Positions 27,901 to 57,288 of a stretch of 64,000 nt of DNA are shown here, in pieces; the first letter of the stretch is position 1; each line of letters opens with the position of its first letter. This DNA is from Mobula hypostoma (lineage: Eukaryota): contig NC_086108.1 of the NCBI RefSeq assembly GCF_963921235.1, positions 8,742,001 through 8,806,000 of the forward strand, given 5' to 3'. Below the pieces are notes generated by a model, which saw nothing but the letters and a program-made list of their open reading frames with translations, ran no database searches and had not been told where the DNA came from. The translations under genes and the position numbers were made by a program.

Positions 27901-28240
27901 TAGGGCTCCTGTACCCAGGTTGTTGCTGCATGGAGGTCCGTGATGGGATAACAAAGTGGAGCTGTACTCTGTGCTTAACTCCTACCTCCTCTCCCTGGCT
28001 GAGAGCTGGCTCTTTTGGAATGTCGTAAATTGCAGGAATTTTTACTCTGCGCAGAGTGCGGAGATGGCTAAATCCAAAATTTCTCAGGTGTATCGTTGAC
28101 ACCTGGGTGTTAAGTGAATCACAAATAAACAATCAGGAACAAGATAGACTCCCGAGTGACATGGTGACATGACATCAACCTTTCTGTCATCGTCAACAGA
28201 AGAGCAGGTTGTGGTCATCAGGAAACGGGAGTGGGGAGAG

Positions 28241-31200: not shown

Positions 31201-31360
31201 TTTTAACATTTAAGAATAAATTGGACAGATACATGGATGGGAGGTGTATGGAGGGATATGGTCCGTGTGCAGGTCAGTGGGACTAGGCAGAAAATGGTTT
31301 GGCACAGCCAAGAAGGGCCAAAGGGCCTGTTTCTGTGCTGTAGTTTCTATGGTTCTATGG
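28241..31360 (+). mobile_element. CR1 LINE, 5'-truncated in ORF1
   Basis: ORF1 esterase tail (FWGRWDLYKRDGLHLN) followed by ORF2; ends in a TTCTATGG octamer tail. Confidence 0.92.
28361..31250 (+). pseudogene. CR1 ORF2 (endonuclease + RT) with frameshifts near 29660 and 31105
   Basis: YFNARS, SETW, GDFN; GVPQGSVLGP, KFADD; LEYCVQFWSP. Confidence 0.9.
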
Positions 31361-31912
31361 TTTTTTTTTATTTTATTTTTATTTGGATAAGGAGTTCACA
31401 ATTATCATGTACTTTTTTTCACACATATAACCTTTTCCATTTTTTATATGTATAAAACTACAATTATTTATACATTCTTAAGTACACATTGAGATGATAT
31501 AAAAGCAAAATAAACATTTAAATAGATAATTATGTACTGTGGTAAATCTAACCTATTAGGCTAAGTAATGAAATTAGTTGTTAAGAAAAATGGTAATAAT
31601 AGTTTCCATACAACCCTTCTGGACCATTTCCACTGGTCCAAAATGTTGCATACAAGCCTATACACCAACCATTGTAGATGTTTATATCCCAATTTGTTCG
31701 TGCTTGTTCCTGCCCGCAGACATAATTATCCAATCCCTATGTACTTATTTACTTAATTTTTTCATTTTTTTTTATCCCTTTCCCAAATCTTTCCCTTTAC
31801 TTGTGTTAATTCTCTATTTTCCAAAAAAAAACAACAAACATTTAGACTAGGGGTGCTTACGTTAGCAATATTACTGTGTTGATGAGAAGAGCAATATAAA
31901 TCATTAGGAGAG

Positions 31913-34900
31913 TCATCTAAAGTCTGCTCGCATTGGGGTTATATATTCAATCCATTTATTCCAGATTTGATAAAATGTTTCTTTTTGAGTTCTCAGGGAG
32001 TAGGTCAACTTTTCCATTTTAAATATTTCCAAGATAATTTCGTACCAATCTTCTAATGTAGGTGGTATTGGATTTAGCCATTTTCTAGTGATTGATTTCT
32101 TACTTGCCGCTAAGAGGGCCTGCAGCAACTTTATATCTTCCTTCTGTTCAAGGAACAATACATGCCCCAAATAGAGCGTCTCAAAGTTCAGAGGTATCTG
32201 GGACCTAAGTACCTTAACTAATGTTCTATGAATACCTTCCCAAAATAGACTTAATTTAGGGCAATCCCAGAAAATATGAAAATGATTTGCCTCCTTAGAG
32301 CCGCACCTTCTCCAACACATCACATTTGTATCTTTATATTTTTCCTGATATGGGGTCTTGAAGTACCTTATAATGTTTTTCCAACAATGTTCTCTCCAAG
32401 TCAAAGAATTAGTCGAGGACCATTGAAAGCTGCAGATTTTCCCCCAAGCCTCCTCTGAAAGTACCAACCCCGCTTCGTTCTCCCACTTCTCTTTAATATA
32501 CAGTGTATTTACATTTTTAGCATGGGAGAGTGCATTATATAGGCGAGAAACTGATTTACTAGGTATTGAACTGCAAGCCGAATTCAGAATCTTGAAAAAT
32601 TCTAATTCTACTGTTGACAGGTCTGTATATCTACAACTCTGGTTAACATAGTTTCGTATTTGAAGGTACCTAAAGAAGTCATTATGTTCTAGGCCATGTT
32701 TGTCCTGCAGGATTTGGAAACTTTGTAATACTCTTTTATCTATAAATGAGAGGTAGGTTGTAAGACCTTTCTTTATCCATAGCTCAAATCTTTTATCTCC
32801 TCTGTTGGGAAGGAATTCGGTATCATATGCACACCATCTAAAGAGTTTTAGCATGTTATTAATTCCACATGAATTAACCACCTTCTGCCATACTTTTAAT
32901 GTAAGATTTATCCAAGCATTATTAAATTTTTCCAACTGGGCCATCAATCCTTTGTCAGCTATTGAGGCCTGAAGAGGAAAACTGTCAACTAATCCTAATT
33001 CTATTTCCTTCCATCTAGCCTTATATTCCCTATTACACCAATATAACAGAGGGGTTATCTGTGAGGCATAAAAATAATTTCTCAGGCAAGGAAGAACCAT
33101 ACCTCCTCTTTCCTTCCCTAACTGTAAGGTGTTATATCGAATTCTAGGTTTCCTTCCTTGCCAAATGAAGCAGGAAATCCATTTGTCCCATTCCCTGAAT
33201 TGATTATCATCCACCTCCACTGGTAAAGTACGGAAAAGATATAATAACCGAGGAAGAATATTCATTTTTATAGTATTTATCCTTGAATTTAAACTTAAAA
33301 AGGGGATAAGATTCCATCTATGCATATCTGCTTTTATCTCTGAGATTAATGGCCCATAATTTACCTGTGACAGTGTTGAAAGATCCTTCGGCAGGGTTAT
33401 TCCTAAATATTTTAATGATTTAGCTTCCCACTTAAGATCGTATGTATCCTGCAATTTTTTGGATGGTGTATAATTTAGGGTCATAACCTGCGTTTTCTTT
33501 ACATTTATTTTATAACCTGATATTTTCCCAAAGTCATCCAACAGTGTAAACAATCCTATAAATGATTTTTCTGGTTCACTCAGATAGACCAAAACATCAT
33601 CTGCGAATAACGCCACTTTCTGTTCAATCCCTGCCACCTTGATACCTTTTACGATTTCGCTCTGTCTTATTAGTTGGGCAAGTGGTTCAATATATAGCGC
33701 AAAAAGGAGAGGAGAAATTGGGCATCCCTGTCTAGTGCCTCTCTCTAAAATGAAGGAGTCAGAGAGGTCCCCATTTATCTTAATTCGGGCTGTTGGGCTG
33801 TCATACAGCGTTTGAATTACTTTAATAAACCTTTCTTGAAAGCCGAATCTTCCTAACACTCTGTATAGGAATGCCCAACTAACCAAATCAAAAGCTTTCT
33901 CAGCGTCCAATCCTACTACCATTGTCTCTGTCTCGTTCTTATTAACCTGTTCTAATATGTGTAGAGTTCTCCTTATGTTGTCCTGTGTTTGTCTTTGTTG
34001 AATAAATCCAGTCTGGTCTAAATGGATTAGGCCAGGTAAAAGCTTTTCCAATCTGCGCGCTAATATAGATGTAAATAGTTTGTAATCTAAATTAAGAACA
34101 CTAATTGGCCGATAATTGCCACATTCTGGTTTATCTTTACCCTCTTTAGGAATAACTGAAATAATCGCTTCTCTCCAGGAAGGTGGAGTTTCTCCTCTCT
34201 GCAAGATCTAATTAAAGGTGTTAAGTAGTAATGGGGCTAACTGTGTCTTCAGGGACTTGTACCACTCTGAGGTAAACCCATCAGAACCCGGGGACTTTCC
34301 AGCCTTTAACCTAGAGATGGCCACGTTCAGTTCTTTGACAGTTACTGGTTCTAATAAACTTTCATTTTGTAAATCTGTAAGTTTAGGTAGATCTAAAAAA
34401 TTCAATACACTGTCTATATAGGGCTCATTGGGGGCCCGGGGTTGGGAGTACAGCTCTCGATAATACGTTTCAAAACTCTCTTGAATTTTCCCTATTGTAC
34501 TCTCCACAAGCTTTGTCTTTGGATTCTTTATTTTATGAATTGTATTGTCTTGTTGTTGTTTTCGTAATTTATATGCTAATAATCTAGCTGATTTACCTCC
34601 TACTTCATAATTCTTTTGTCTCAGGTAAAGAAAATTTCTTTGAGTTTCCAACGTATAAATATCATCAATTTCACTTTGCAATTTCCTAATTTCCTGTTTT
34701 CGATTTGAATTACTTTTGTTGCTATCTCCAACTTGAAGTTGTTTTAATTTTCCTTGAAGGTCTGCTAATTTTTGTGCATTGATTTTTTTCATGTGAGTAG
34801 TAATGGAAATAATTTTCCCTCTCAGTACAGCTTTCAATGTATCCCATAAAATCACTGGTGATGTTTCTCCCGTGTCATTAAGGTCTAGATATTCTTTGAT

Positions 34901-35701
34901 TTCTCCCCTTAATCTCTCCATTACTTTTGGGTTATTAAGTATATGTGAGTTTAGCCTCCATAGTGTTTTCCTCATTTTCCTTTTCAGGATTAGAGACATA
35001 GAGACTGGGCTATGATCCGACAGATCAATTGTTGCAATATTACAGTTTTTTATCCTGAGTCTATCTGTATTAAAGATAAAGAAATAGTCTATCCTTGAAT
35101 AGGCTGAATGAGGGAAAGAGTAATATGTATGATCTTTACTAGTAGGGTGTAATTCCCTCCAGACATCTATAATTCCCAACTCCTCCATCAATGAATTCAC
35201 TTTCCGAGTCAGAGGTTTATTCTGAGTAACTATTCTTGAAGAATCTAATATAGGATTTAATCTAATATTAAAATCCCCTCCACAAATTACTACCCCTCGA
35301 GAACTGACCATTAGGTCAAAAATGTGTCTATAAAATGACCATTCACTACCTGGAGGAGCATAAACATTCAGCAATGTTATTTCTGTACCTTCTATTCTTC
35401 CTGTGATTTTTACAAACCGTCCTTCTTTGTCTCTAGTCTCTGAAATATGTTCATAATTAAGAGTACTTGATATTAAAGTAGCTACCCCTCTTTTGTGACT
35501 CAATTTATATGATGAATAAAATACATGCTTAAAGCCCATTCTTTTTAATTTTCCATGTTCAGATTGGCTCATATGTGTTTCCTGGAGGAAAGCTATTTGT
35601 GCCCTCTCTTTTTTCAATTTAGACATAATCTTATTTCTTTTAATTGGATTCAAAACCCCATTAACATTATAGGAAATTATTTTTACCAATTCAGTTTGCA
35701 T
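31913..35701 (-). pseudogene. L1 ORF2p (APE endonuclease, RT, C-terminal CCHC) with a single in-frame TAG
   Basis: SYNVNG, LQETH, GGDFN, SDH; RQGCPISP, LFADD; CWRRC...HIFWDC. The 497-aa and 763-aa ORFs are in the same frame, separated by TAG at 34208-34210. Confidence 0.93.
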
Positions 35702-36063
35702 TTTTCTCTAGTAGAAAAAAAGCACTCTCCTTTTCTAACCAAACAGTAAGCAATCCCTTCTCAACAGTAAACCAAGACATATAACCACACCCTAGACATT
35801 TCTGAACGTATAACATTTGAAAATTTTCCCCGACTTCCCACAGTGAGGCCTGAGCACCGACCCGCCTCAGTTCAGAGGGATAACCTCTATCTTCACCCTG
35901 TGTTAGAGGGCCCTCAGCAGTTTGAATAATCATAGAGAATTTTCTCCTATTTATGTCTCGACCATATTACTATCATTCAAGTTATTCCGCCTAGATTATT
36001 TTCAGTTACCAGTTTTCATTTTACTTTTAAGTCCGATTTACTCTTTTCAGTCATTTCTCTTAA

Positions 36064-37050
36064 TTAATCTGTATTCTCTGTACATTCGCGTCTGAATATT
36101 TGCAGCTTTTCCTTGTAGTTTGACACTCTGGTTCGTGTGGAGCGTCCTCGCCCCACTAACTGCCACGACTTCTGCCGAATCCTCTCCAGTAGCGACTCCG
36201 GTTGGGTGATAACTTTAATAGGTAGTCCCCGGTCTGCCAGGTCCGACGTTGCCTCCTCCACCGTAGCGTAAGTTTTTGTCCCTTCGTCGTGAAAGACTCT
36301 CAGCCGAGCTGGATACAGGGTCTGGAATCTGATGTTGTTTTCCTTCAGGACTCTCCGTGTTTCCGTATATTCCTTCCGTCTGGCAAGGATCCCTGGTGCG
36401 TAGTCGTGGTCTAAACTGATTTTACAGTTGTTCCACATGAAACCTTTCTTTTGCCATGCTCTTTTAAGCACCTCTTCCTTCGTTCTGTAACTGAGAAATC
36501 TGACCAGAATCGATCTGGGCTGGGCGCCTGCTGGAGGCTGTGGTGCCAACGCGCGGTGAGCCCTTTCTATCTGTAGGTCTTTTGCGGCCGGTATATCAAG
36601 GTTCTCTCTAAGCAGCTTCTCCACGAAGGGAATCATCAATCCGGGTTTACCTTCAGTTCCTTCAGGAACTCCGTAGATCCTCACATTTTCCCTTCTCAAG
36701 CGGCCTTCTTGATCTATTAGTTTCCACTGGAGCTGCTCTTGCAGCTTTAGCATTTCTGCTATCACTTGCTCTGTGTTTTGTAGCTTCTCTTCAATTCCAA
36801 CAGTCCTCGCTTCGGCTTCATCTATCCGCGAGTTAGTTTTTACTATTTCTCCTTTAATATCTTCCAGCTGTTTGCTGTTATCTTGTCGGAACTCGCGAAT
36901 CTCTCCGAGAATCAAAGACAGAGTCACCGATTCCTCCTCATTATCTCTGTCCTGGCTTGCCGTGGGGGAGCTAGGCCCGTCGCCTTGCTGCATCTCTTTA
37001 TGTTTATCAGCCTTCGAAGCGGACTTTTTATTCTTGTTCTTAGACATCAT
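36064..37050 (-). CDS. L1 ORF1p (coiled coil, RRM, CTD), 328 aa, intact
   Basis: Motifs RRENVRIYGVPE, IERAHR, PRSILVRF, LYPARLRV. Confidence 0.92.
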   Translation of the reverse strand: MMSKNKNKKSASKADKHKEMQQGDGPSSPTASQDRDNEEESVTLSLILGEIREFRQDNSKQLEDIKGEIVKTNSRIDEAEARTVGIEEKLQNTEQVIAEMLKLQEQLQWKLIDQEGRLRRENVRIYGVPEGTEGKPGLMIPFVEKLLRENLDIPAAKDLQIERAHRALAPQPPAGAQPRSILVRFLSYRTKEEVLKRAWQKKGFMWNNCKISLDHDYAPGILARRKEYTETRRVLKENNIRFQTLYPARLRVFHDEGTKTYATVEEATSDLADRGLPIKVITQPESLLERIRQKSWQLVGRGRSTRTRVSNYKEKLQIFRRECTENTD

Positions 37051-39858
37051 CCTTGCCCCTTTTATTAATATAGTTATGCAATATTAAGTATTTGTCTAAA
37101 TTCGATTTTGGGGCAGTTTACCTTCTTTTTTGTCGAGAGACCTTTTCCTTACGCCGCCATTCCCTTGATGACCCGGAAGTCCCCCGGTTCTAAGGTTCTA
37201 TGGGTGGGCACAGGCCGCTGTCTAAATGGTGCTGAGGTCAAAGGGGTCGAAAGCCTCAGGTTCCTGGGATGGAAAAATCACACAGCCTGTCCTGGTCCAA
37301 CCACCAGTACCTCTGCAACACACACAAAATGCTGTAGGAACTCAGCAGGTCAGGCAGGATCCATGGAAAACAGCAAACAGTCAACGTTTCAGGCCAAGTC
37401 CCTTCATCGGGACTGGAAAAACAGAGGAGAAGGTGAGGGGAGGAGAGGAAGAAGTACAAGGTGAAACCAGGAGAGGGGGAGGGGAGTAAAGTGAAGAGCT
37501 GGGAAGTAGATTGGTGAAAGAGATAAAGGACTGGAGAAGGGGGTATCTGATAGGAGAGGATAGAAAGGGAAGGGGGAGGAGCACCAGAGGGAGGTGATGG
37601 GCAGGTAAGGAGATAGGGTTAGAGGGGAAACAGGAATGGCACGTGGTGAAGGAGTGGAGGACCAGTTACTGGAAGTTCAGGAAATCAATGTTCAGTGCCT
37701 TTACTTTCTCAGAATGCTAAAACAAATTCAACAACTTTTATAGACCTGTCTGGCTGCATAGCATTTGGCAGCTTAAAGTTGTGCTCAATACCACAAGAAA
37801 CTGCAGAGTTGTGGTGACAGCACAGCACATCAAAGAAACCAGCATGTATATTCTTCTCACTGCCTCAGTAAAGCAGTCAGCTTAATCAAAGACCCACCTA
37901 CTCCTCCTATCAAGCAGAAGATATAACAATTTAAAATTTGTTTTATTTGTCGCACAGGTATTGAAAATTACAGTGGAATGTGTTGTTTGCATCAACAACC
38001 AAGACAGGCCAAGGATGGACTTGGGGGCAGCCCATTGGTGACACTATGCTTCCAGTGCCAGCTTACTAACCCTAACCCATACATCCCTGGAATCTGAGAG
38101 GAACCCGGAGCACCCAGAGGAAACTCACACCTTCCGAGAGAGAAGGTACAAACTCCATACAGATGTGGTGGGATTTGAACCCAGATCACAGCTACAAAGC
38201 ATTCCACTAACCATATGAAAGCCTGAAAGCACATGCAACCCTGCTCAAGCACAACCCCTACCTTCCTGTAAAAAGACTGTTGAACGGCTCCTAGTATGTC
38301 AAGATCATAATCAGAATCAGGTTTAATACCACCAGCATATATGGTGAAATTTGTTATCTTTGCAGCAGCAGTACTATGCAATACATAATAATAGAGAGAA
38401 GAGGGTGGATTACAGTAACTATATGGGGAAGAAGCTGTTTCTGAATCATTGAGTGTGTGTCTTCAGGTTCCTGTACCTCCTCCCTGATGGTAACAATGAG
38501 AGGAGAGCATGTCCTGGGTGATGGGGGTTCTTAATGATACGTTTGTAGATGCATTGCTCCTTGAAGATGTTCTGGATACTACAAGGGCTAGTGCCCATGA
38601 TGGAGCTGACTGAGTTTACAACTTTCTGCAGCTTATTTCGATCATGTGCAGTGGTCACCCGCGTGCCCCCCCCCACCCCCACCCCATACCAGACGGTGAT
38701 GCAGCCAGTTAGAATCCTCCCCTTGGTACATCTGTAGAAATTTACGAGTGTCTTTGGTGACGTACCAAATCTCCTCAGACTCCTAATGAAATATACCCAC
38801 TGTTTTCTACCTACTTCTTTGTAGCTGCATCGATGTGTTGGGCCCAGGATAGATCCTCAGAGTTGTTGACACCCAGGAAATTGAAATTGCTCACCCTTTC
38901 CACTTCTGATCCCTCTATGAGGACTGGTGTGTGTTCCCTCATCTCACCCTTTCTGAAGCCCACAGTCAGTTCTTTGGTCTTATTGATGTTGAGTGCAAGA
39001 TTGTTGCTGTGATGCCAATTGACTAGCTGGTATATCTCGCTCCTGTACGCCACCTCATCAACATCCAAGATTCTGCCAATAGTTGTGTCATTAGCAAATA
39101 TGTGGACTCTTGACCTCACAGTCTACCTTGTTATGGCTGTACTCTCTCTGTAAGAGGATCTCTCATGGTGATAGGAGCAAGATGTACCAGCTAAATAAGT
39201 GGTGTCACAACAAAAAACCTTGCACGCAATGTCAGTGAGATCAAAGAACTGATGGTGGACTTCAGGAAGGGTAAGACAAGGGAACACACACCAGTCATAA
39301 TAGAGGGGTCAGAAGTGGAAAGAGTAGACAATGTCAAATTCTTGGAGAGTCAGTATCTCTGAGGATATCAATGCAGCTACAAAGAAGGCTAGACAGTGGC
39401 TACTTTATATTAGGAGTTTGAGGAGATTTGGTTTGTAACACTTGCAAGTTTCTACAGATGTACCATGGAGAGCATTCTATCTGGCTGCACAGGATCGAAG
39501 TAAGCTGCAGAGAGTTGTAAACTTAGTCATCTCCATCACAGGCACTAGCCTCTGTAGTATCCAGGACATCTTCAAGGAGCGATGCCTCAAAAAGGTGGCA
39601 TCCATCAATAAGGACCACCATCACCCAAGTCAAACCCTGTTCTCACTGCTACCATCAGGAAGGAGGTATAGAACCTGAAGACACACATTCAATAAAACAG
39701 GAACAACTTCTTCCCCTCTGCCATCTGATTTCTGAATAAACATTGAACCCATGTACAGTACCTCAGGACTTTTTTATTTTTACAGTTTGCATGACATATT
39801 TAACTATTTTATTTATTATATATACAATTGTACAGTTAATAAAATATATAAATATATA

Positions 39859-40422
39859 CTGTTGTTCGTCCATCATTGACGTCGATGAGGACCTCGACAC
39901 CATTATGATGGTGTCAAGACTAGCGCGTGATTTGGATTTAAGTGAGGGAGAGTTGCGCAGCGTCAGCCTCACTCTCTCTTCCCAATTCCCATCTGGATCC
40001 AGTGGCAAGACAGAGTCTAGACAGCTGGAGATGGGACTAGGCGCAGTGGATGACCAGGACATCTTCTGTGTCTTGTCCTGCTCTACACGTTCTATGACGC
40101 TTGCAGAGACCGCCTTCTTGACCGTTGGACCTTCCATTGGTCTCGTCCGCTCAATCCGCCGGAGTCTGTCTTCACATGCTGGGATAGACAACTCCCTATC
40201 TCACCGAGGGTTTGAGACCCGTCGGCTACCCTCACCTGGTTTAGCCGGCTTGTCGAAGCCGTTGCCCGGGGTGTGGCTGCTGTCGCATGCAAACAGCTAC
40301 GGGGAGCCACAGGTGAGAGCTGAGTGCCAGGTGGGGACCAAAGGTGGACTAACCGCCCTGAAAAGGACGCGACATGTTCCCTCACCAAAGGTGCTACCCC
40401 TCCCTGACACCCCATACACCCC
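39859..40422 (-). mobile_element. Short non-autonomous retroposon (family A) with 5' HDV-like ribozyme fold, copy 1
   Basis: Near-identical to 55884-56445; inserted in a TA run of a Rex1 tail; starts GGGGTGTATGGGGTGT, ends GACGAACAA. Confidence 0.8.
40229..40413 (-). ncRNA. HDV-like self-cleaving ribozyme (predicted)
   Basis: Same pairing elements as 56252-56436. Confidence 0.65.
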
Positions 40423-47257: not shown

Positions 47258-47311
47258 TTATCCCTGATAAATGTCGTGAAATTTGTTGTTTTGTGGCAGC
47301 AGTGCAGAGCT

Positions 47312-47532
47312 GGGATATCCAGGGAGGGGGAGCACCTCTGGTGAAGGGCCTTATTGTGTCCATTCTAGTACAGCTCACTCAACTTTGGCCCCCACCGGTC
47401 ACTCAACTCTCACCTGTGGCTCCAAGTGGCCGTTTGCATGCGACAGTGACTTCGACAGGCGGGCTAAACCAGGTGAGGGAAGCTGGCGGGCCTCATACTA
47501 CAGTGAGATAGGGACATGCCTGACCCAGCATG
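47312..47532 (+). mobile_element. Degenerate 5' fragment of family A retroposon
   Basis: Retains CTCTCACCTGTGGCTCC and GGCTAAACCAGGTGAGGG but lacks the ACACCCCGGGCAAC segment. Confidence 0.65.
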
Positions 47533-50445
47533 GGATTCAATGTCCATTCAGAAATCTGATGCAGAGGGGAAGAAGATGTTCCTGAATCACTGAGTGTGAG
47601 TCTTCAGAATTCTGTACCTCCTTCCTTGAAGGTAACAATAAGAGGGCACGTCTTGGGTGAGACGGGGGGGGGGGGGTCCTTAATAACGGATGCTGCCTTT
47701 TTGAGGCATTGCTCCTTGAAGATGTCCTGGATACTAGAGGCGCTCATACCCATGATGGAGCTGACTAAGTTTACAACTCTCTGCAACTTACTACGATTCT
47801 GTACAGCAGCCTCCACTCCCATAACGAGACAGTGATGCAGCCAGTTAGAATGCTCTCCATGATATATCTCTAGAAATTTGTGAGTGACTTTGGGTGACAT
47901 GCCAAATCTCCTCAAATTCCTAGTGAAACATAGCCACTGTTGTGCCTTCTTTGTAGCTGCATCAAAGTGCTGGGTCCATATTAGATCCTCAGAGGTATTG
48001 ACTCCCTCACCTGGAGTGTGTTCCCTCACCTTACCCTTTCTGAAGTCCCCAATCAGTTCTTTGGTCTTACTGATGTTTGGTCTTAATGACGACGGACAAC
48101 CACCACCACAATGCAACTTCTAAGAAATTAGGATAAACTACAAAAATAAACAAATAGTGCAAAGGCAGAACATTTTTCATGGGTTCATGTACCATTCAGA
48201 AAGTTGATGGCAGAGAGGTGTTCTTAAAACATCGAGTGTGGGTCTTTGGGCTCCTGTACACCCCTGAGAAGAGCAGAGCGAGCTGCATCAGTGACTATTG
48301 TCCAGTAACACTGACATCTACTGTGATGGAGTGCTTTGAGACGTTGATCATGGGTCAAATTAACTCTGGCCTGAGCAAAGATCTGGTCCTGTTGTAACTT
48401 GCGTACCACTACAATAGGTCTACAATCTCACCGGCTCTCCACTCAGCTTTGAACTACCAGGTCAACAGGAATGCCAACTGTTTATTGATTACAGCTCAGT
48501 ATACAACACTGTCATTCCCAGAGAACTAATCAATAAGCTTCAAATCCTAGGCTTCTGTACTTCCCCCTGGAACTGGACCTTCAACTTCCTCATCAGGAGA
48601 CCACCATTAGTGCAGATCAGAAATAACATCTCCTCCTTATTGTCAATCAGTACAGGCACACCCCAAGGATGTGTGCTTAGCCCACTGCTCTTCTCTCTCT
48701 ACACCCATGGTCGTGTGGCTAGGCACAGCTCAAATGCCACCTATTAATTTGCTGATGACACAAGTGTTGTTGACATACTCTCTGATGGTGTCGAGGAGGT
48801 CGCCACCCTGGGATAAAGACTGTGCATTCACTCTCTGTGCCACTCATGGTTTAATGCCTCTGTATGATCGCTCTCTGTCCCCTACACCGCAAGAAAGTCC
48901 TAGCCTGTCCACTCTTCTCCATAACTCAGTCCCTTAAGTCCTCACAAGATTCTTGTAAATCTTTTCTGCACTCTTTCCAGTTTAATGACGTCTTTCCTAC
49001 AGCAGGTGACCACAAACTTACACAGTACTCCAAGTACAGCCTCACTGATGCCTTGTGCAACTGCAAGGTAATGACCTAAACTGACCATTGCTGGGCTAGC
49101 TATTTCAATGACTTTGTGGTTTGACTGAGATTGAAACATCGAGGCAGCAGGCAGTGTGCCCTGCTGTCGAAAGGAGGCCCTGCATCTGAGGGGCCTTCTC
49201 TTTCCCTTGATGGTGAGTGAGAATCTGCTGGTCCTCAAGTCAGGGAACTCGGACAAGCAATGCAGCAGAATGTAACATCCAAACAGTTGTTCCAGGAGTG
49301 ATCTCTTTCCCTCCCTCACCAGTTGTTCTTTTCTCTTTAAAGAGGTTCTGTGATTTTTTTTATGCTGCCTGCAGAAAGATGAACCTCAGGACTGTATACT
49401 GGACACCTACTTATATAATAAATGTACTTTGAATCCCAACTTCTACACTCAGTGCCCTGACTAAAGGCCAGCATACCAATCACCTTCTTCACCACCCTGT
49501 CCACCTGTGACACTACCTTCAGGGAACAACGTACTTGTACTCCCAGGTCCTGAGTTTAATCTGAACAAGATCCTGCAAAACAACACACACAAAATGCTGG
49601 AGGAACTCAGCAGGTCAGGCAGCATCTATGGAAATGAATAGACAGCCAAGGTTTCAGGCCGGCACTTCTTCAGGATGGAAAGGGGAGGGTGAAGATGCCA
49701 GAATAAAAAGATGGGGGAAGGGTTGGGGAAGGGGGATAGCTAGAAGGTGAAACATGAAGCCAGGTGGGTAGGAGAGATAAAGGGCTAGAGAGGAAGGAAT
49801 CTGATAGGAGAGGAGAGAGGACCAGAGGAAAAAGGGAAGGAGGAGGGGACACAGGGAAATAATAGGCAAGTGAGAAGAGCTAAGCGGCCAGAGTGAAGAA
49901 CAGAAGAGGGAGGGGGAAGAAAAAAATATTACGAGAAGGAGACATCGATATTCACGTCTCAGGTACCCAGATAGAACATGAGATGCTGCTCCTCCACTCT
50001 GATGGTGGCCTCATTTTGGCACAAGAGGAGGCCATGGACCGACCTGTCGGAATGGGAACTGGAATTAACGTGTGGTAACTGGGAAGTTCTGCTTTTGGTG
50101 GATGGAGCAGAGATGCTCAACCAAGTGGCCCCCCAGAGTTGCTGCACAAATTGATAGGGTGGTTAAGAAGGCATGTGATGTGTTGGCTTCATCAGGGGAT
50201 TGAGTACACGAGCCGTGAGGTAATGTAAAAACCCTGGTTAGACCACATTTGGAGTATTGTGTTCAGTCCTGGTCGCCTCATTATAGGAAGGATGTGGAAG
50301 CTTTCAAGAGAGAGTGCAGAGGAGATTTACCAGGATGCTGCCTGGATTAGAGAGAATATCTTATGAGGGTAGGCTGAGTGAGCTAGGGCTTTTCTCTGGA
50401 GTGAAAGACAATGAGAGGTAACTCAATACAGGTGTACAAGATGAT

Positions 50446-50535: not shown

Positions 50536-50544
50536 CATGCAGAA

Positions 50545-51065
50545 TAGAAGAGAGAGGGAAGGGAATGGAGGGAGGGGGGAAGGAACAGAGGGAGAGAGGG
50601 GAAGGGAACAGAGGGAGAAAAAGCGATAGGGAACAGAGAGAGAGCGGAAGGGAACAGAGGGAGAGAGCGCGATAGGGAACGGAGGGAGACGGGGAAGGGA
50701 ATGGAGGGAGAGAGAGCAAAAGGGAACCGAGGGAAAGAGAGTGATAGAGAACAGAGGGAGAGAGAGCAGAAGGGAACAGAGGGAGAGAGAGCGGAAGGGA
50801 ACAGAGGGAGAGAAAGAGAGCGCACAGAAAGGAACAGAGGGAGAGGGAGTGGAAGGAAACAGAGAGAGAGAGTGTGGAAGGGAACAGAGGGAGAGAGAGC
50901 GGAAGGGAACAGAGAGAGAGGGAGTGGAAGGGAACAGAGAGAGAGAGAGCAGAAGGAAACAGAGAGAGAGAGCGCGGAAGGGAACAGAGGGAGAGAGAGC
51001 GGAAGGGAACAGACGGAGAGTGGGGAAGGAAAAGGAGAGAGAAAGGGGAAGGGAATGGAGGGAGA
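50545..51065. repeat. GA-rich minisatellite (~25-27-bp unit) in the SDR pseudo-intron
   Basis: GGGAACAGAGGGAGAGAGAGCGGAA-like units. Confidence 0.85.
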
Positions 51066-51427
51066 ATGGGGAGGTCAGAGGGAAGGGCTGCCGCACTCCC
51101 TCCTCACTGCACTTCCCACATTGTGGAGCTCCCTCCTCACTGCCCCACCAGCAGTGCAGCACTCCCTCCACACTGCCTCTCCCATACTGCAGAGCTCCCT
51201 CCCACAGCACGGCACTAACACGCTGATGTCCTCCTCCCTACATATCCCACCCCTACTTTCCCCCGTCACCTTTCCACCCACCTGCCACCTTACCCCACCC
51301 TCTCACTGATGCAGTTGGTCCAGCTGGCAATGTTGATGTGGCTTGGCATGCTGCCTTCGCCACACTCACTGCCCAGGCTCTCCCGACCTTACGCCACCCC
51401 TGCCCATCACAGAAACCCTCCTCTCAC

Positions 51428-51584
51428 TCGATGCACCCGGCTGGCAACGTCGCTGATGCGGCTCAGCCGCCATGTTTCAGCTGATCCAAGAGCAGGATGG
51501 TCAGCAGGATGTGGCCAAAGTGGTTAACACCGATCTGCAGTTCAAAGTTGTCCTCTGTCACCTGTCTGAGGCCAATGGGAGCCC
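51428..51584 (-). pseudogene. Retinol dehydrogenase-type SDR (RDH11-14/DHRS13-like) pseudo-exon A
   Basis: Acceptor TTCCCAG| and donor |GTGAGA; GAPIGLRQVTEDNFELQIGVNHFGHILLTILLLDQLKHG, then a 1-nt frameshift (TGA at 51463-51465) before LSRISDVASRVHR. Confidence 0.8.
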
Positions 51585-51649
51585 CTGGGAAGGAGAAAAG
51601 GAGATTGAGGGGGCGCAGAGAGACAGAGGGAGGGTTAGGTGCAGTGTGG

Positions 51650-52470
51650 TGAGAGAGAGGTGGTGAGGGGAAGAGTAAGAGCAGGGAGTGTGAAAGAGAG
51701 AGAATAAGGTGGCGAGGGGAGGAGTGTGAAAGAGAGAGGTGGCGAGGGGAGGAGTGAGAGAGTGTGAAAGAGAGAGGTGGCAAGGGGAGTGAGAGAGTGT
51801 GAAAGAGAGAGGTGGCGAGGGTAGGAGTGAGAGAGTGTGAAAGAGAGAGGAGCGAGGGGAGGAGTGAGAGAGTGTGAAAGAGAGAGGTGGCAAGGGGAGT
51901 GAGAGAGTGTGAAAGAGAGAGGTGGCGAGGGTAGGAGTGAGAGAGTGTGAAAGAGAGAGATGGCGAGGGGAGGAGTGAGGAAGTGTGAAAGAGAGAGGTG
52001 GCGAGGGGAGGAGTGAGAGAGTGTGAAAGAGAGAGGTGGCGAAGGGAGGAGTGAGAGAGTGTGAAAGAGAGAGGAGCGAGGGGAGGGGTGAGAGAGTGTG
52101 AAAGAGAGAGGTGGCGAGGGGAGGAGTGAGAGAGTGTGAAAGAGAGAGGTGGCGAAGGGAGGAGTGAGAGAGTGTGAAAGAGAGAGGAGCGAGGGGAGGA
52201 GTGAGAGAGTGTGAAAGAGAGAGGTGGCGAAGGGAGGAGTGAGAGAGTGTGAAAGAGAGAGGAGCGAGGGGAGGAGTGAGAGAGTGTGAAAGAGAGAGGT
52301 GGCGAGGGGAGGAGTGAGAGAGTGTGAAAGAGAGAGGAGCGAGGGGAGGAGTGAGAGAGTGTGAAAGAGAGAGATGGCGAGGGGAGGAGTGAGAGAGTGT
52401 GAAAGAGAGAGATGGCGAGGGGAGGAGTGAGAGAGTGTGAAAGAGAGAGGTGGCGAGGGGAGGAGTGAGA
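51650..52470. repeat. GA-rich minisatellite, 37-38-bp unit, ~20 copies
   Basis: Unit GAGAGAGTGTGAAAGAGAGAGGTGGCGAGGGGAGGAGT. Confidence 0.9.
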
Positions 52471-52569
52471 GGGCGGTGTGTGTGGGGGTAAGGGAGGAGT
52501 GTAAAGGAGGGAAGGGTGTAGGAGAGGGAGGGGTGTAGAGAGAGAGGAGTAAAAGAGAGGGGGGTGAAA

Positions 52570-53148
52570 GAGGCGGAGAGTGGAGCGTACGGGAGGACGG
52601 GGATTCTGTGCGGCCTCCGGGCAGCCGAGGGTTAAAGACGGCGCGGTCGTCAGACAGGGGGCGGATCGGATTTCGTGTTTTGTTTTCCTCGCTGGGACGG
52701 GACGTGAGAGGGAGGAGGTGGTGGTGGTGGTGGTGGTGGTGGTTTATTCGAGCTCGGAGCGTCGAGCCGATATTGGGATCAGGGAGCAGGCCTGTGGATC
52801 CGAGCGTTTAAATAACCCGAGTCCCAGGGCTTGAAGGCCTTTCCGCCGGTCCGGACCGGACCGAGGGGGGCGGGCGGTTTGTCCCACGACTCGCCGGAGC
52901 GGGCTGTGAGGAGGAGGCTGCGGGGATGGGGGAGATGGGCGGGGAGGCCGAGGACCAGGCCCCGACCCAGCAGCGCCGCGAACGGTCCCGGGACGCGGCC
53001 CGTAGCCGCCGCGGACGGGAGACCGAGGTGATGTACCAACTGGCCCAGCAGCTACCGCTGCCCCGCGGCGCCGCCTCCCACCTGGACAAAGCCTCCGTCA
53101 TGCGGGTGGCCATCAGCTACCTGCGGCTCCGGACCCTCCTCCGGTCCG
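52570..53148 (+). promoter_or_regulatory. CpG island / probable promoter and 5'UTR of the HIF-alpha gene
   Basis: Abrupt GC- and CpG-rich stretch in an otherwise CpG-poor window; GC-box-like GGGGCGG motifs near 52657 and 52866; (GGT)n run 52717-52743. Confidence 0.7.
52926..53148 (+). CDS. hif3a: HIF-alpha (HIF-3alpha-like) first coding exon, bHLH domain
   Basis: Translates [74 protein letters not shown], containing the HIF-alpha SRDAARSRR and HLDKAS motifs. Phase-1 donor G|GTAAGT at 53149. Paralog call (HIF3A) is less certain than the family call. Confidence 0.85.
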
Positions 53149-53169
53149 GTAAGTGGCAGCTTCTTTCTT

Positions 53170-53712
53170 GTTCTCTCCCTCTCCTCCTCTCTCTCTCTCT
53201 CTGTGTCTCTCTCTCTCTCTCTGCCTCTCTCCCCCCCGTGTGTGTGTGTCTCTCTCTCTCTCTCTGCCTCTCTCCCCCCCGTGTGTGTGTGTCTCTACCC
53301 CCCCGTGTGTGTCTCTCTCTGCCTCTCTCCCCCCCCGTGTGTGTGTGTGTGTCTCTACCCCCCCGTGTGCGTCTCTCTCTGCCTCTCTCTCCCCCTCCGC
53401 CTCTCTCTCTCTTTCTCTCTCTTCCCCTTCTCTGTGTGTGTGTGTCTCTCTCTCCCTCTCTCTCTCCCTCCCCCTTCTGTGTGTGTGTGTCTCTCTCTTT
53501 CTCGCTCTTCCCCCCTGTGTGTGTGTGTCTCTCTCTCTGCCTCTCCCCCCCCCGTGTATGTGTCTCTCTCTCTCCCCCTCCCCCTCTGTGTGTGTGTGTG
53601 TCTCTTCCTCTCTCCCCCTCTGCCTGCCTCTCTCTTTCTTTCTTTCTCTCCCCCCCCATGTGTTTATGTGTGTCTCTATCTCTCTGTCTCACACCGTCTC
53701 TCTCTCTCTGTC
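53170..53712. repeat. CT/GT compound low-complexity repeat in first HIF-alpha intron
   Basis: Alternating (CT)n, C runs and (GT)n. Confidence 0.9.
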
Positions 53713-54465: not shown

Positions 54466-55883
54466 GTGATCAAAGGGTTAATGCATGGCAGAGGCCCGGG
54501 TTATGTAATTCGAATTCAGATTTGTTCATTTATCACATGTACAATGGAAACATACCATGGAGTATATCCATTGTGTCAACAACGGATGTACAACTGTTGC
54601 CACACATTCTGGCGCCATCAGACTTGCTGCCCGTTACGTCCCTTGCTGGCAGTGAAGGTCCTCCGTCCGTGGCGCTGTTCAGGGCTCCCTTCACTGTGCC
54701 AGGAGCTTGCTCTCTGTTTCCACTACTGTCAGTTAGGCAAGACCCGGGAATCCTGTTGCACACCGATGTAGAAGGACTCTTCATTGCTGTTTCCCTAACA
54801 ATTTTGTTTGACCAGTCAAGGTTGTTAGCCCTGAGCTGAACCCCCGAACCTGTGGGCCACTCTTAGTCTGGCCTCTACCCTTTGGCCTGTTTGGCATGGG
54901 TGACCCTCCCAAGAGCCAAAACGCAAAGCCCTGACTCCAGCCAGCATAGCTCACCTGGTCATTGAGGCACACAAGCCCCCAAATCCTTCGATAAGGTTGT
55001 GGTCCTCTTTAAGGCACCAATATAGTATGCCCCCAAAGTCCAGCAGAACAAGACAGGTAACGACAACAGCTAAGCAAGCCCCTTTCCTCCCACCCATCCA
55101 ACTCCACACCACACTCACACTTCCAACCCAAGGTCCGGCCTTCAGCCTCCAGTGGACTTGTGGACTCGCGTGTGTCGCAGCCTCTAACGCTCCCAGTGGA
55201 TTCACTGTCCCAGGGCTTCGTTGGCCATGGCAGCTGGGATGCATGGACTGTGATGTCGGGGTCTCATCGCATTGGAGGTCTTCTAGGTGTAGAGAATTGG
55301 GGATCATGAGACTGTAATAACAGAGGCCTGTGACTGTTATAATTCTGGCTTTTGATCTTCAGTTTTGGACATCTAGACACAGTACAGCACAGGAACAGGC
55401 CCTTCAGCAATGATGGCTGTGCTGAGTAGGATGCCAAATTTAAACGAATTCCTTCTGCCTGCACATGGTCTACGTCCCTGCATTCCCTATTTTGTGAGAT
55501 TGGGATTTTGATATGACATGTCTTCAGCCTGCGACATTGGTGATCTTAGAAACGCTCAAAATGCCAGGGTTCCCCCAGCCTCAGATCCACGGACCCCTTG
55601 GTTGATGGTAGGGGCTCCACGGCATTAAAAAAAAGGTTGGGAACTCCAAACTCAGCAGGGCTGGCAGCATCTATGGAGTCAACATTGTGGGCCAAGACCT
55701 GTCATCAGGACTGGAGAGGAAGGGGACAGAAGGCAGAATAAGAAGTTGGGCGGAGGTGAAAGAGTACAAGCTGGCAGGTGATAGGTGAGGGGGAAAGTGG
55801 GTGAGGGGATGGAAGAAGCAAAGCTGGGACGTGATGGGTGGAAGAGGTAAAGGGCGGAAGAAGAAGGAATCTGATAAGAGAGT

Positions 55884-56445
55884 CCTTGTTCGTCCATCAT
55901 TGGCATCGATGAGAACCTTGACACCATTATGATGGTGTCGAGACTAGCGCGTGATTTGGATTTAAGTGAGGGAGAGTTGCGCAGCGTCAGCCTCACTCTC
56001 TCTTCCCAATTCCCATCTGGATCCAGTGGCAAGACAGAGTCTAGACGGTTGGCGATGGGACTAGGCGCAGTGCATGACCAGGACGTCTTCTGTGTCTTGT
56101 CCTGCTCTACACGTTCCACAACGCTTGCAGAGACTGCCTTCTTGACCGTTGGACCTTCCATTGGTCTCGTCCGTTCAATCCGCCGGAGTCTGTCTTCACA
56201 TGCTGGGATAGACAACTCCCTATCTCACCGAGGGTTGAGACCCGTCGGCTACCCTCACCTGGTTTAGCCGGCTTGTCGAAGCCGTTGCCCGGGGTGTGGC
56301 CGCTGTCGCATGCAAACAGCTATGGGGAGCCACAGGTGAGAGCTGAGTGCCAGGTGGGGACCAAAGGTGGACTAACCGCCCTGAAAAGGATGCAACATGC
56401 TCCCCCACCAGAGGTGCTACCCCTCCCTGACACCCCATACACCCC
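55884..56445 (-). mobile_element. Short non-autonomous retroposon (family A), copy 2, in HIF-alpha intron
   Basis: 8-bp TSD AAGAGAGT (55876-55883, 56446-56453); interrupts a Penelope fragment. Confidence 0.85.
56252..56436 (-). ncRNA. HDV-like self-cleaving ribozyme (predicted)
   Basis: P1 GGGGTGT/ACACCCC, P2 CTCTCACCTG/CAGGTGAGGG, P3 GGC/GCC, L3 begins TCC, GG-GCAAC, P4 CGGCTT-CGAC-AAGCCG, J4/2 GCTAA. Confidence 0.65.
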
Positions 56446-57288
56446 AAGAGAGTAGACAATGGGAGACAGGGAAGGAGGAGGGGAAGCAGGGGAAGTGATG
56501 GGCAGGTCATGAGGGCAAGGGAAGAGATGAAAAGGGATGAGAGGTCCTCCAGAATGAGGGAAAACAAAGCGGAGGGAGGAGCAGAGGGGAGTGGTCACCA
56601 GAAGTTAAAGAAATCGATGCTTATGCCCTCAGATTCGAGGCTAGCCAGATAGAATACAAGGTGTTGCTCCTCCAGCCTGCCTCTGGCCTCATTGTGGCCG
56701 CAGAGAAGACCATCATCAGACACATCAGTTTAGGAATGGGTAGCCACAGGGATTGACATATGGGAAGTCCAAAGGCTGTAATATTGGGCATCGGATTTAT
56801 AATATTGGGATCGGGATTAATGCTGAGATCACTGCCTATGGTGGGAGTGTCTAAGATCAGAGGAGAAACCGTCAGAATAGAGAGGTGTCCTTTTCGAAAG
56901 GAGATGAGGAGGAATTTCTTTAGCCAGAGAGTGGTGAAACTGTGAAATTTGTTGCCAAGTCTGTGGGTATATTTAAGGCAGAGATTCTTGATTAGTCAGG
57001 GCATGAAAGGATTTGGGGAGAAGACAGGGAGAGTGGAGCTGAGAGGGAAATAGATCAGCTGATGAACTGGTGGAACGGACTCGATGGGCCACATGGCCTA
57101 ATTCTGCTGCTACGTCTTATGGAGCAAATACTATTAAATTCAAACAAGAACCAGTAGTGGGGGTGGGGGGGTGGTGGAGAGAACTTCTTTATATGTAATC
57201 TCCCCACAGTAATCACACACCATTGTTAGAACACAGACTGACAGTTTCACTGCTGGAGTAAATCTCTTACTATCTCTTCTTTCAGTTT

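What the first reader, a model, noticed from the sequence alone, without database searches (positions are those of the whole stretch)
55884..56445. Non-autonomous ~560-bp retroposon whose 5' end is an HDV-like ribozyme with an expanded L3
Seen: two near-identical copies (39859-40422 and 55884-56445, the latter with an 8-bp TSD) plus a decayed third (47312-47532). On the minus strand the order is P1 GGGGUGU, long J1/2, P2 CUCUCACCUG, P3 GGC, L3 starting UCC, P3 GCC, P1 ACACCCC, GG-GCAAC, P4 hairpin CGGCUU-CGAC-AAGCCG, GCUAA, P2 CAGGUGAGGG. Known: this is the HDV double-pseudoknot order, GGGCAAC and GGCUAA resemble the HDV ribozyme cores, and such ribozymes process 5' ends of R2, RTE and Ingi-type retrotransposons. 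Unusual: L3 is ~28 nt with an inserted hairpin (GCUGU...ACAGC) instead of ~7-8 nt, and the P1 5' strand is tandemly duplicated at the element boundary (GGGGTGT-AT-GGGGTGT) in both copies. Inference: a SINE-like family with no pol III promoter that cuts itself out of host transcripts and is mobilised in trans.
Basis: partly seen in the sequence, partly recalled or inferred. Interest (0 to 1): 0.8.

Follow-up and report, generated by a model that had tools for sequence, protein, structure and literature searches.

The report
Retroposon family with HDV-like ribozyme head
This is one copy of a very abundant, roughly 560-base non-coding jumping element whose first 194 bases can fold like the self-cutting RNA of hepatitis delta virus, which would let it trim itself out of host transcripts, though the cutting has not been tested.

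Summary
Two about 560-bp copies lie on the minus strand (56445-55886 and 40422-39862). A third, decayed relative lies on the plus strand (47311-47535). All belong to a retroposon superfamily with thousands of copies in this 3.5-Gb genome. There is a young family (1-3% from its majority) and an older one of about 527 bp.

Copies have target-site duplications and 5' ends clustered on the first G of GGGGTGT. Their 3' end is a stem-loop followed by variable (CAA)n, (CCAA)n or (ACC)n repeats.

Positions 1-194 fit the HDV-like double-pseudoknot order, with every helix in place. Between the two families the core helices and J4/2 are unchanged, while flanking parts differ by about 22%. P4 and the helix closing J1/2 show compensatory changes.

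L3 begins U-C-C-N-N-G in both families, which is the canonical spacing. The extra hairpin sits just after that G.

Points against:
- P1, P2 and P3 never vary, so they give no covariation.
- The fold scores only slightly above shuffled sequence.
- Rfam gives only a sub-threshold HDV match.
- G1 pairs with C, not U.
- No LINE partner was found, and there is no RNA-end evidence.

Verdict: the retroposon family is certain. A functional HDV-like ribozyme head is plausible (about 0.6). It would be a new variant of a known kind.

The parts
55886..56445 (-). Copy B of the young retroposon family (560 nt; G1 at 56445, last A of GACGAACAA at 55886)
56446..56453 (-). 5' target-site duplication ACTCTCTT of copy B. 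Its partner lies at 55876-55883, after two extra bases GG at 55884-55885.
56252..56445 (-). Proposed HDV-like ribozyme of copy B (element positions 1-194).
56439..56445 (-). P1 5' strand GGGGTGT. The predicted cleavage site is just 5' of 56445.
56430..56436 (-). Second GGGGTGT copy. Most of it forms the 5' strand of the helix that closes J1/2 (P1.2, 56426-56435).
56345..56435 (-). J1/2 peripheral hairpin domain. The closing helix pairs 56426-56435 with 56345-56354. RNAalifold predicts 29 pairs, with compensatory changes between the families.
56333..56342 (-). P2 5' strand CTCTCACCTG
56329..56331 (-). P3 5' strand GGC
56301..56328 (-). L3, 28 nt. It starts U-C-C-N-N-G in the family majority (copy B has A at the sixth position). 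The inserted hairpin lies at 56302-56320.
56298..56300 (-). P3 3' strand GCC
56291..56297 (-). P1 3' strand ACACCCC
56289..56290 (-). GG of P1.1, which pairs with CC at L3 positions 2-3
56269..56284 (-). P4 hairpin CGGCTT-CGAC-AAGCCG. It has one fully compensatory pair change against the older family.
56262..56268 (-). J4/2 GCTAAAC, carrying the candidate catalytic C
56252..56261 (-). P2 3' strand CAGGTGAGGG
55886..55911 (-). 3' stem-loop (CATCG...CGATG type) followed by the GGACGAACAA tail. This is the presumed recognition and priming site for a LINE reverse transcriptase.
39862..40422 (-). Copy A of the young family (561 nt). Its ribozyme part is 40229-40422. The last L3 base is A instead of G.
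47311..47535 (+). Decayed and truncated copy of the older related family. It lacks 18 nt covering P3', P1' and P1.1.

Best explanation
The element is a high-copy, non-coding, LINE-dependent retroposon: SINE-like, but without a Pol III-type head. Its first 194 nt form an HDV-like self-cleaving ribozyme.

Proposed mechanism:
1. Inferred: a source copy is transcribed as part of a longer host transcript.
2. Shown as conserved, compensated pairing: the J1/2 hairpin domain closes and brings P1 and P2 together. The activating role is inferred from Webb et al. 2016.
3. Inferred: the double pseudoknot forms (P1, P1.1, P2, P3, P4) and cuts just 5' of G1. This leaves an RNA that starts with GGGGUGU.
4. 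Shown as a conserved 3' stem-loop plus tail; partner not found: a partner LINE's reverse transcriptase recognises the 3' end. It slips on the CAA, CCAA or ACC repeats and copies the RNA to its 5' end.
5. Shown: the new copies have TSDs of 6-15 bp in the script's calls and begin at G1.

L3 keeps the canonical U-C-C-N-N-G start. It carries an extra 19-nt hairpin just 3' of that G. In HDV that place holds a bulged-out, non-conserved base.
For: Family and ends:
- At least 3374 first-look candidates; 40 of 40 scored at 96-100% identity, and 37 of 40 start at query position 3 or earlier.
- A script found a TSD in 24 of 30 young copies. In 20 of those 24 the TSD ends within 3 nt of G1.
- The repeat number in the tail varies between copies.
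- An older family of about 527 bp has the same head and a homologous 3' stem-loop and tail.

Fold:
- All helices are present with junctions of 0-1 nt. P1 is 7 of 7 Watson-Crick, P2 is 10 bp, P3 is 3 bp, P1.1 is 2 bp and P4 is 6 bp.
- 89.9% of 3488 cells pair across 88 copies, against 35-47% when the partners are slid.

Selection, from comparing the two family majorities:
- P1 5' strand: 0 of 7 columns differ.
- P2, both strands: 0 of 20.
- J4/2: 0 of 7.
- The block from J2/3 through P1.1 (P3, L3, P3', P1'): 3 of 44.
- J1/2 interior: 16 of 71.
- Downstream: 10 of 46.

Signature bases:
- L3 first U: 88 of 88 copies.
- CC of P1.1: 87 and 84 of 88.
- L3 G at position 6: 24 of 30 young and 53 of 58 old. 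This matches the four-base spacing of the conserved U...G pair, U20/G25 and U23/G28 (PMC3386971, passages read).
- J4/2 C: 30 of 30 young and 45 of 52 old.

Compensation:
- P4 pair 2 is C-G in the old family and G-C in the young (GC:27, CG:20). Pair 5 is U.G in the old and U-A in the young.
- The J1/2 domain has 29 predicted pairs. Three carry double changes at family level. At its base an indel is balanced by a substitution in the opposite strand.

Other:
- MFE folds of one young and one old copy each recover the J1/2 hairpin and P4. The young copy also recovers P2, and the old copy P1.
- The best sense-strand Rfam hit on the 97-nt core is an HDV ribozyme model, aligned colinearly over J1.1/4, P4 and J4/2.

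Precedents:
- P1-P1' distances of 23 to over 700 nt, and duplicated P1 strands at R2 5' ends (PMC3774820, sections 12, 16 and 18 read).
- A J1/2 helix that 'pinches' P1 and P2 together (PMC4908430, passages).
Against: - No cleavage data. The one RNA-labelled run was only a guess at RNA and is kept as contigs, so it shows no ends.
- P1, P2, P3 and P1.1 never vary between the two families, so there is no covariation for the pseudoknot helices.
- The fold scores 27.5, against a best of 27.0 among 12 shuffles. MFE z-scores are only -0.58 and -0.52.
- Rfam gives nothing at gathering thresholds. The HDV hit is 13.2 bits against a cutoff of 44, E 1.6, and is absent for an old-family copy.
- The pair next to the cut is G-C in both majorities, not the G.U wobble described beside the scissile bond. 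The T variants fit CpG decay.
- At 28 nt, L3 is far outside the 8 nt I recall for HDV.
- A young subfamily (6 of 30) has A at P1 position 6, with no compensating change.
- No LINE partner was found.
- Follow-ups of ribozyme-in-repeat claims (pseudoknotted, hammerhead-like and other folds) in other genomes found no ribozyme. That lowers the prior.
Confidence: 0.6

Rival explanations
1. The head is a structured but non-catalytic RNA. The precise 5' end comes from transcription starting at G1, driven by an internal promoter (Pol II type, or an atypical Pol III). The conserved helices serve RNA stability, or binding of the LINE proteins. The HDV-like drawing is then a coincidence of a G-rich 5' end and C-rich partners.
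For: - A precise 5' end is expected from an internal promoter just as much as from cleavage.
- The fold is barely above shuffles and the MFE z-score is about -0.5.
- P1 and P2 give no covariation.
- G1 pairs with C rather than U.
- L3 is oversized.
- The A6 subfamily spread despite a P1 mismatch.
- Follow-ups of ribozyme-in-repeat claims in other genomes found no ribozyme.
- The trypanosome Pr77 region is both promoter and ribozyme, so a promoter role is not exotic (abstracts in the listing).
Against: - No tRNA, 5S or 7SL-like head was found. No A/B boxes have normal spacing. A TTTT run lies at position 59 in 30 of 30 young copies.
- This reading does not explain why the 7 nt right after P3' complement the terminal 7 nt exactly.
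- It does not explain why the L3 U-C-C-N-N-G, the P1.1 GG and the J4/2 GCUAA are kept while their neighbours drift.
- It does not explain why the best Rfam match is an HDV model.
Confidence: 0.25
2. The head is a relic. A ribozyme was inherited from the 5' UTR of an ancestral LINE (as in R2 SIDEs or NARTc). It no longer cleaves because of the G1-C pair and the L3 insertion. It is retained for another role, for example protein binding or translation-independent RNP assembly.
For: - The architecture is HDV-like but departs from the canonical form at two points that matter for catalysis.
- The R2 protein is reported to bind the pseudoknot in the 5' UTR of its ribozyme (PMC6765202, passages).
- Some natural R2 ribozymes with P1 mismatches or without the L3 G are inactive in vitro (PMC3774820, section 12).
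Against: - The two families keep the catalytic-core positions unchanged, including the J4/2 C and the L3 U and G, while other parts differ by about 22%.
- The young family spread recently: copies lie 1-3% from the majority.
- No LINE with this head was seen. But the search was limited to 364 kb.
Confidence: 0.12

Closest known systems
HDV-like ribozymes at the 5' ends of non-LTR retrotransposons (R2, and by published report RTE, baggins and L1Tc)
   Same: - Same nested double-pseudoknot order.
[quoted passage not shown]
- The P1-P1' distance is long and variable.
- P1 strands duplicated at the 5' end are described for R2.
- The proposed role is to free the element from a co-transcript.
   Different: - This element is non-coding, about 560 bp, and dispersed with TSDs rather than specific to rDNA.
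- L3 is 28 nt, with an inserted hairpin.
- G1 pairs with C.
- No Rfam model reaches its threshold.
Non-autonomous derivatives that keep the LINE's ribozyme head: NARTc and SIDER (trypanosomatid Pr77/L1TcRz) and R2 SIDEs of Drosophila
   Same: These are short, LINE-dependent elements whose 5' end is an HDV-like ribozyme rather than a Pol III gene-derived head. This rests on the abstracts and listing; those papers were not read further.
   Different: - Those elements share head and tail with a known autonomous partner. Here no partner was found.
- The host here is an animal with a 3.5-Gb genome, and copy number is in the thousands.
- The ribozyme is about 194 nt, against 77 nt in L1Tc.
Large HDV-like ribozymes with a structured J1/2 (P1.2) domain, for example the mosquito Agam-2 family
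   Same: A helix in J1/2 starts a few bases after P1 and ends a few bases before P2. This is the arrangement shown to speed cleavage by 'pinching' P1 and P2 together (PMC4908430, passages). Here the helix is 10 bp, conserved and compensated.
   Different: The activity of this one is untested. The second half of its 5' strand is a repeat of the P1 strand.
SINEs with stringent LINE-type tails (a stem-loop plus short tandem repeats, as recalled for L2, CR1 and RTE partners)
   Same: - Length, TSDs and high copy number.
- Subfamily turnover with a shared head and a replaced body.
- A 3' stem-loop followed by a slipped short repeat.
   Different: There is no tRNA, 7SL or 5S head and no usable A/B boxes. 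By the strict definition it is SINE-like, not a SINE.

Membership tests
HDV-like self-cleaving ribozymes | Nested double pseudoknot in the order P1, P2, P3, L3, P3', P1', P1.1, P4, J4/2, P2' | tested here: met
   All strands are complementary and in that order, with junctions of 0-1 nt. 89.9% of cells pair over 88 copies.
HDV-like self-cleaving ribozymes | Cleavage site at the first base of a P1 of about 7 bp | tested here: inconclusive
   P1 is 7 of 7 and starts at the insertion-defined 5' end: 20 of the 24 TSDs found end within 3 nt of G1. That fits cleavage, but it fits a transcription start equally well.
HDV-like self-cleaving ribozymes | Conserved U and G in L3 (trans G.U pair), with the two bases after the U forming P1.1 | tested here: met
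   L3 starts U-C-C-N-N-G. U is present in 88 of 88 copies. G is present in 24 of 30 young and 53 of 58 old copies. The CC faces the GG that follows P1'. The spacing matches U20/G25 and U23/G28.
HDV-like self-cleaving ribozymes | Short L3 (8 nt in HDV as I recall; no held source gives the range) | tested here: not met
   L3 is 28 nt in both families. A 19-nt hairpin is inserted after the conserved G.
HDV-like self-cleaving ribozymes | G.U wobble pair next to the scissile bond | tested here: not met
   The majority pair is G1-C in both families: GC 42, GU 8, AU 3 and other 15 among the 68 cells with letters on both sides. The T variants fit CpG decay. [quoted passage not shown]
   J4/2 is GCUAAAC. 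The C is present in 30 of 30 young and 45 of 52 old copies. It aligns to the GGCUAA of the Rfam HDV model. Its catalytic role cannot be tested here.
HDV-like self-cleaving ribozymes | Covariation supporting the helices | tested here: inconclusive
   P4 and the J1/2 helix show compensatory changes. P1, P2, P3 and P1.1 are invariant between the only two lineages available.
HDV-like self-cleaving ribozymes | Match to a curated Rfam HDV-type model | tested here: not met
   Nothing reaches gathering thresholds. The best match is RF02682 at 13.2 bits against a cutoff of 44, E 1.6, on the 97-nt core. An old-family copy gives none.
HDV-like self-cleaving ribozymes | Mg2+-dependent self-scission | not testable with these tools
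   This needs an in vitro transcription and cleavage assay.
SINEs (strict sense) | Head derived from a Pol III gene (tRNA, 7SL or 5S) with an internal promoter | tested here: not met
   There is no Rfam match to any small-RNA gene and no ARAGORN hit. A/B-box words appear only at 2 mismatches and more than 180 nt apart. A TTTT run lies at position 59.
LINE-dependent non-autonomous retroposons | Short, non-coding, dispersed, flanked by TSDs, with a LINE-type 3' end | tested here: met
LINE-dependent non-autonomous retroposons | An autonomous partner that shares the 3' tail (or the head) | tested here: inconclusive
   No tail or head homolog lies outside the SINE copies in the 364 kb held. The two LINEs in the window have other tails.

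The most novel reading that the evidence does not exclude
A class of vertebrate-type high-copy retroposons replaces the Pol III head of a SINE with a working HDV-like ribozyme. The element is therefore parasitic on host read-through transcription.

Its ribozyme tolerates a whole hairpin inserted in L3, at the site of the bulged base, and a G-C pair at the cut site. Standard HDV descriptors and Rfam models miss this architecture. If so, many more such heads may be hidden in animal repeat libraries.
Probability: 0.45. Interest if true: 0.7.

Novelty: new variant of a known kind. Interest (0 to 1): 0.6.

Why it matters
If the head cleaves, this would be a thousand-copy, recently active retroposon in a large animal genome whose 5' end is made by a ribozyme rather than a promoter. 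The element is also held in sequencing runs of at least six coded organisms.

It would extend a strategy known from R2, RTE, L1Tc/NARTc and R2 SIDEs. It would also show that the HDV fold accepts a structured insertion in L3.

That would change how HDV-like ribozymes are searched for, because current descriptors fix a short L3. It would also give repeat annotators a new 'head' type. If the head does not cleave, the element is still a clean example of a non-Pol III retroposon head under RNA-structure selection.

Tried and rejected
- Rfam, whole window at gathering thresholds and 721 nt at E up to 10: nothing relevant.
- Raw DNA reads of three further organisms (X21-X23): no read laid. This is no test of anything.
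- The RNA-labelled run X16: contigs only, and 'RNA' is a guess. It gives no information on ends or strand.
- Protein-coding readings:
  - The sense frame is open from position 223 to the 3' end (113 aa) in most young copies.
  - The antisense frame is open over the whole element (186 aa) in most young copies.
  - Pfam gave nothing above E 0.03.
  - A search for longer proteins gave no hit.
  - 13 of 2000 shuffles also have a fully open frame.
  - The old-family majority has 3-7 stops in every frame.
  - I therefore rejected a coding role.
- The idea that an old subfamily spread after losing the core. 21 of 30 copies have deletions in P1' to P1.1. But the deletion ends differ, no substitution goes with them, and 0 of 28 copies sampled by the 5' 131 nt have one. 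The query itself carried the deletion, so this is sampling bias.
- The idea that truncated old copies are a second family, or a LINE, sharing the head. The five cases are interrupted by unrelated repeats.
- The LINE partner:
  - Searches with the 180-nt and 194-nt tails found nothing in the 364 kb held, and an nhmmer search with the head found nothing beyond the known copies.
  - The RT family search returned one L1-type family in all 150 scored hits.
  - The window's L1-like and CR1-like LINEs have poly-A-type and TTCTATGG-type tails.
- Earlier findings of this scan: none for this genome or this sequence.
- Papers PMC3308841 and PMC3256349 are not held. What Ruminski 2011 and the Webb and Luptak review say about SINEs, L3 length and the G.U pair could therefore not be checked.
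- Literature: searches found no description of this element or of an HDV-like ribozyme in a fish retroposon. One search was badly posed and is uninformative. Repbase and Dfam cannot be searched here.

Full report
**What is there.** The minus strand carries two near-identical elements. Copy B runs from 56445 to 55886 and copy A from 40422 to 39862.

Copy B is flanked by the 8-bp repeat ACTCTCTT. Two extra bases lie between its tail and the downstream repeat.

A third, roughly 72%-identical stretch lies on the plus strand at 47311-47535. One search gives their coordinates.

**It is a large retroposon superfamily.** The window comes from a 3.48-Gb, 200-contig genome.

- A search with copy B found at least 3374 first-look candidates. 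All 40 scored hits were 96-100% identical, and 37 of 40 began at query position 3 or earlier.
- The 30 copies fetched differ from their majority by 6-18 of 561 positions, mostly at CpG sites.
- A script found a direct repeat of 6-15 nt flanking 24 of 30 copies. In 20 of those 24 the repeat ends within 3 nt of the first G of GGGGTGT. The other four end at -6, +4, +7 and +8.
- The 3' end is a short stem-loop, then GGACGAACAA, then a variable number of CAA or CCAA units.

The plus-strand relic belongs to an older family of about 527 bp. Its copies are about 75-83% alike. It shares positions 1-379 with the young family. It also shares a homologous 3' stem-loop and tail, ending in ACC repeats.

In the 30-nt flanks displayed, neither family shows homology upstream of position 1.

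The element's words are held in sequencing runs of at least six coded organisms.

**No sign of a Pol III head.**
- Rfam gives nothing at gathering thresholds. On the element strand it gives only microRNA noise at E up to 10.
- ARAGORN finds no tRNA.
- A-box and B-box words occur only with 2 mismatches and more than 180 nt apart.
- A TTTT run sits at position 59 in all 30 young copies.
- Both long open frames are best read as chance.

**The proposed ribozyme occupies positions 1-194.**

| Element | Positions |
|---|---|
| P1 | 1-7 with 149-155 |
| J1/2 | 8-103 |
| P2 | 104-113 with 185-194 |
| P3 | 115-117 with 146-148 |
| L3 | 118-145 |
| P1.1 | 119-120 with 156-157 |
| P4 | 162-177 |
| J4/2 | 178-184 |

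This is the HDV-like order. P3' abuts P1', and P1' abuts P1.1.

**Evidence that this is more than a drawing.**

*Position.* The 7 nt that follow P3' are the exact complement of the 7 nt at the insertion-defined 5' terminus. In HDV-like ribozymes the cut is at the first base of P1 (PMC4908430, passage).

*Conservation.* Comparing the majorities of the young copies (30) and the old copies (58) gives the figures below.

| Region | Columns that differ |
|---|---|
| P1 5' strand | 0 of 7 |
| P2, both strands | 0 of 20 |
| J4/2 | 0 of 7 |
| Block from J2/3 through P1.1 (P3, L3, P3', P1') | 3 of 44 |
| J1/2 interior | 16 of 71 |
| Downstream | 10 of 46 |

*Signature bases.*
- L3 begins U-C-C-N-N-G in both families.
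- The U is present in 88 of 88 copies. It is one of only five invariant columns in the alignment.
- The two C's are present in 87 and 84 of 88 copies.
- The N-N pair differs between families: CC in the young, AA in the old.
- The G is present in 24 of 30 young and 53 of 58 old copies.

[quoted passage not shown] They lie four bases apart, as U20/G25 and U23/G28. The base after the G is described as bulged out and least conserved (PMC3386971, passages).

So the 'expanded L3' is a canonical start with a 19-nt hairpin inserted where HDV has a dispensable bulged base. This refinement makes the oddity less damaging than it first looked.

*Compensation.*
- P4 pair 2 is C-G in the old family and G-C in the young (GC:27, CG:20). 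Pair 5 is U.G in the old and U-A in the young.
- For J1/2, I ran RNAalifold on 15 representative copies: 5 of the 30 young and 10 of the 58 old, chosen as the least mutated.
- It gives a closed hairpin of 29 pairs. Three pairs carry double changes at family level.
- At the base of that hairpin, the old family's extra C and its partner G are replaced in the young family by an A-U pair.

*Published precedents.*
- R2 ribozymes have P1-P1' distances of 23 to over 700 nt.
- Duplicated P1 strands at the R2 5' end are discussed there, with a model of cleavage at either copy (PMC3774820, section 18).
- Here, most of the second GGGGTGT is sequestered in the closing helix. This may be why the outer copy defines the end. 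That is my inference.

*Rfam.* On the 97-nt core alone, the only sense-strand match among 4227 families is an HDV ribozyme model, RF02682. It aligns colinearly over J1.1/4, P4 and J4/2.

**Evidence against, in full.**
- The hit is 13.2 bits against a cutoff of 44, with E 1.6. An old-family copy gives no such hit.
- My loose descriptor scores the two copies 27.5. That is the best in the window. But one of 12 shuffled 64-kb strands reached 27.0.
- MFE energies are ordinary, with z of -0.58 and -0.52.
- Across 88 copies the pairing is far better than in the slid controls: 89.9% against 35-47%. That control favours a structure derived from these same sequences. Dead copies also mutate freely.
- The only informative comparison is between two lineages, and between them P1, P2, P3 and P1.1 do not vary at all.
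- G1 pairs with C in both majorities, not with U. A G.U wobble beside the scissile bond is described as a metal site in HDV.
- Six of 30 young copies form a loose subfamily with A at P1 position 6 and no compensating change. R2 ribozymes often carry mismatches at the top of P1 (section 16). P1 mismatches can still abolish activity in vitro (section 12).
- There is no RNA-end evidence. The only RNA-labelled run was a guess and is kept as contigs.
- No LINE partner was found.
- Follow-ups of ribozyme-in-repeat claims (pseudoknotted, hammerhead-like and other folds) in other genomes found no ribozyme. That tempers the prior.

**Both window copies may be dead as ribozymes.** This applies only if the fold is real. 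Copy B has A at the conserved L3 G. In Nasonia R2 the same change abolished cleavage. Copy A has A at the last L3 base.

**Comparison with what is known.**
- HDV-like ribozymes at the 5' ends of R2, RTE, baggins and L1Tc are established.
- So are non-autonomous derivatives: NARTc and SIDER, and R2 SIDEs.
- The principle is therefore not new.

What would be new is the combination below:
- a dispersed, thousand-copy, recently active element in a large animal genome;
- a head of about 194 nt with a compensated P1.2 domain;
- a hairpin inserted in L3;
- a G-C pair at the cut site.

I found no description of it in six literature searches. Repbase and Dfam, and two key papers, could not be consulted.

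**Verdict.**
- The retroposon family is certain.
- RNA-level selection on its 5' 200 nt is well supported.
- That this RNA is a working HDV-like ribozyme is the best single explanation, at about 0.6. It needs a cleavage assay.

Noticed in passing
window 31355-37400 (minus strand): A near full-length L1-type LINE.
- ORF1 has a weak Transposase_22 match (36067-37083).
- ORF2 carries the endonuclease and RT in two open pieces of 499 and 764 aa, adjoining at 34207/34208 with a single stop between them.
- The 3' end is A-rich.
- In the genome-wide RT search all 150 scored hits scored 156-160 bits, and several have an open frame of 1264 aa. This suggests a very abundant, recently active LINE that the window copy resembles in size and score. 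Its identity to those hits was not tested.
   Followed up: partly
window 28334-31350 (plus strand): A second LINE with endonuclease (Exo_endo_phos and Exo_endo_phos_2) and RT domains. On this LINE's own (plus) strand the sequence downstream of its ORF, about 31350-31370, reads as TTCTATGG-type repeats. It abuts the 3' end of the L1-type element. Its tail is unrelated to the retroposon's.
   Followed up: partly
window 39863-40420 (plus strand, antisense to copy A); loci L001-L030: The antisense frame is open across the whole young element (186 codons) in most of the 30 copies. Only 13 of 2000 dinucleotide shuffles are as open. The older family's majority has stops in every frame, and Pfam finds nothing. 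This is probably chance, but it is unexplained.
   Followed up: partly
window 39862-40200 and 55886-56224 (minus strand): The sense frame is open from element position 223 to the very 3' end (113 codons), with no stop before the tail repeats. It has no Pfam family and no longer homolog. It might be a remnant of a LINE ORF C-terminus.
   Followed up: partly
loci L004, L006, L016, L024, L026, L027: A loose young subfamily has GGGGTAT instead of GGGGTGT at the 5' terminus. It partly shares four other variants. It spread despite the mismatch this puts in P1.
   Followed up: partly
loci L032, L033, L034, L040, L041, L046, L049, L055: The same 10-nt deletion recurs between two ACACC direct repeats in the P1' to J1.1/4 region of old-family copies. 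L041 and L055 look like a segmental duplicate of each other. It could be slippage or a small subfamily.
   Followed up: partly
window 50540-53710; 27293-28003; 958-1312; 13085-13245: There are several tandem arrays. A large block has units of 25 nt and about 38 nt, with CT/GT-rich simple repeats. Two arrays have a 95-bp period. One array has a 14-bp period (two copies of a CCATCTG-like 7-mer).
   Followed up: no
window 7561-7628, 23075-23142, 56890-56957 and others (repeat family D18): A dispersed repeat contains TTTAGCCAGAGAGTGGTGAA.CTGTGGAAT-type words. From memory this resembles a common repeat of cartilaginous fishes. That is recall only and was not tested.
   Followed up: no
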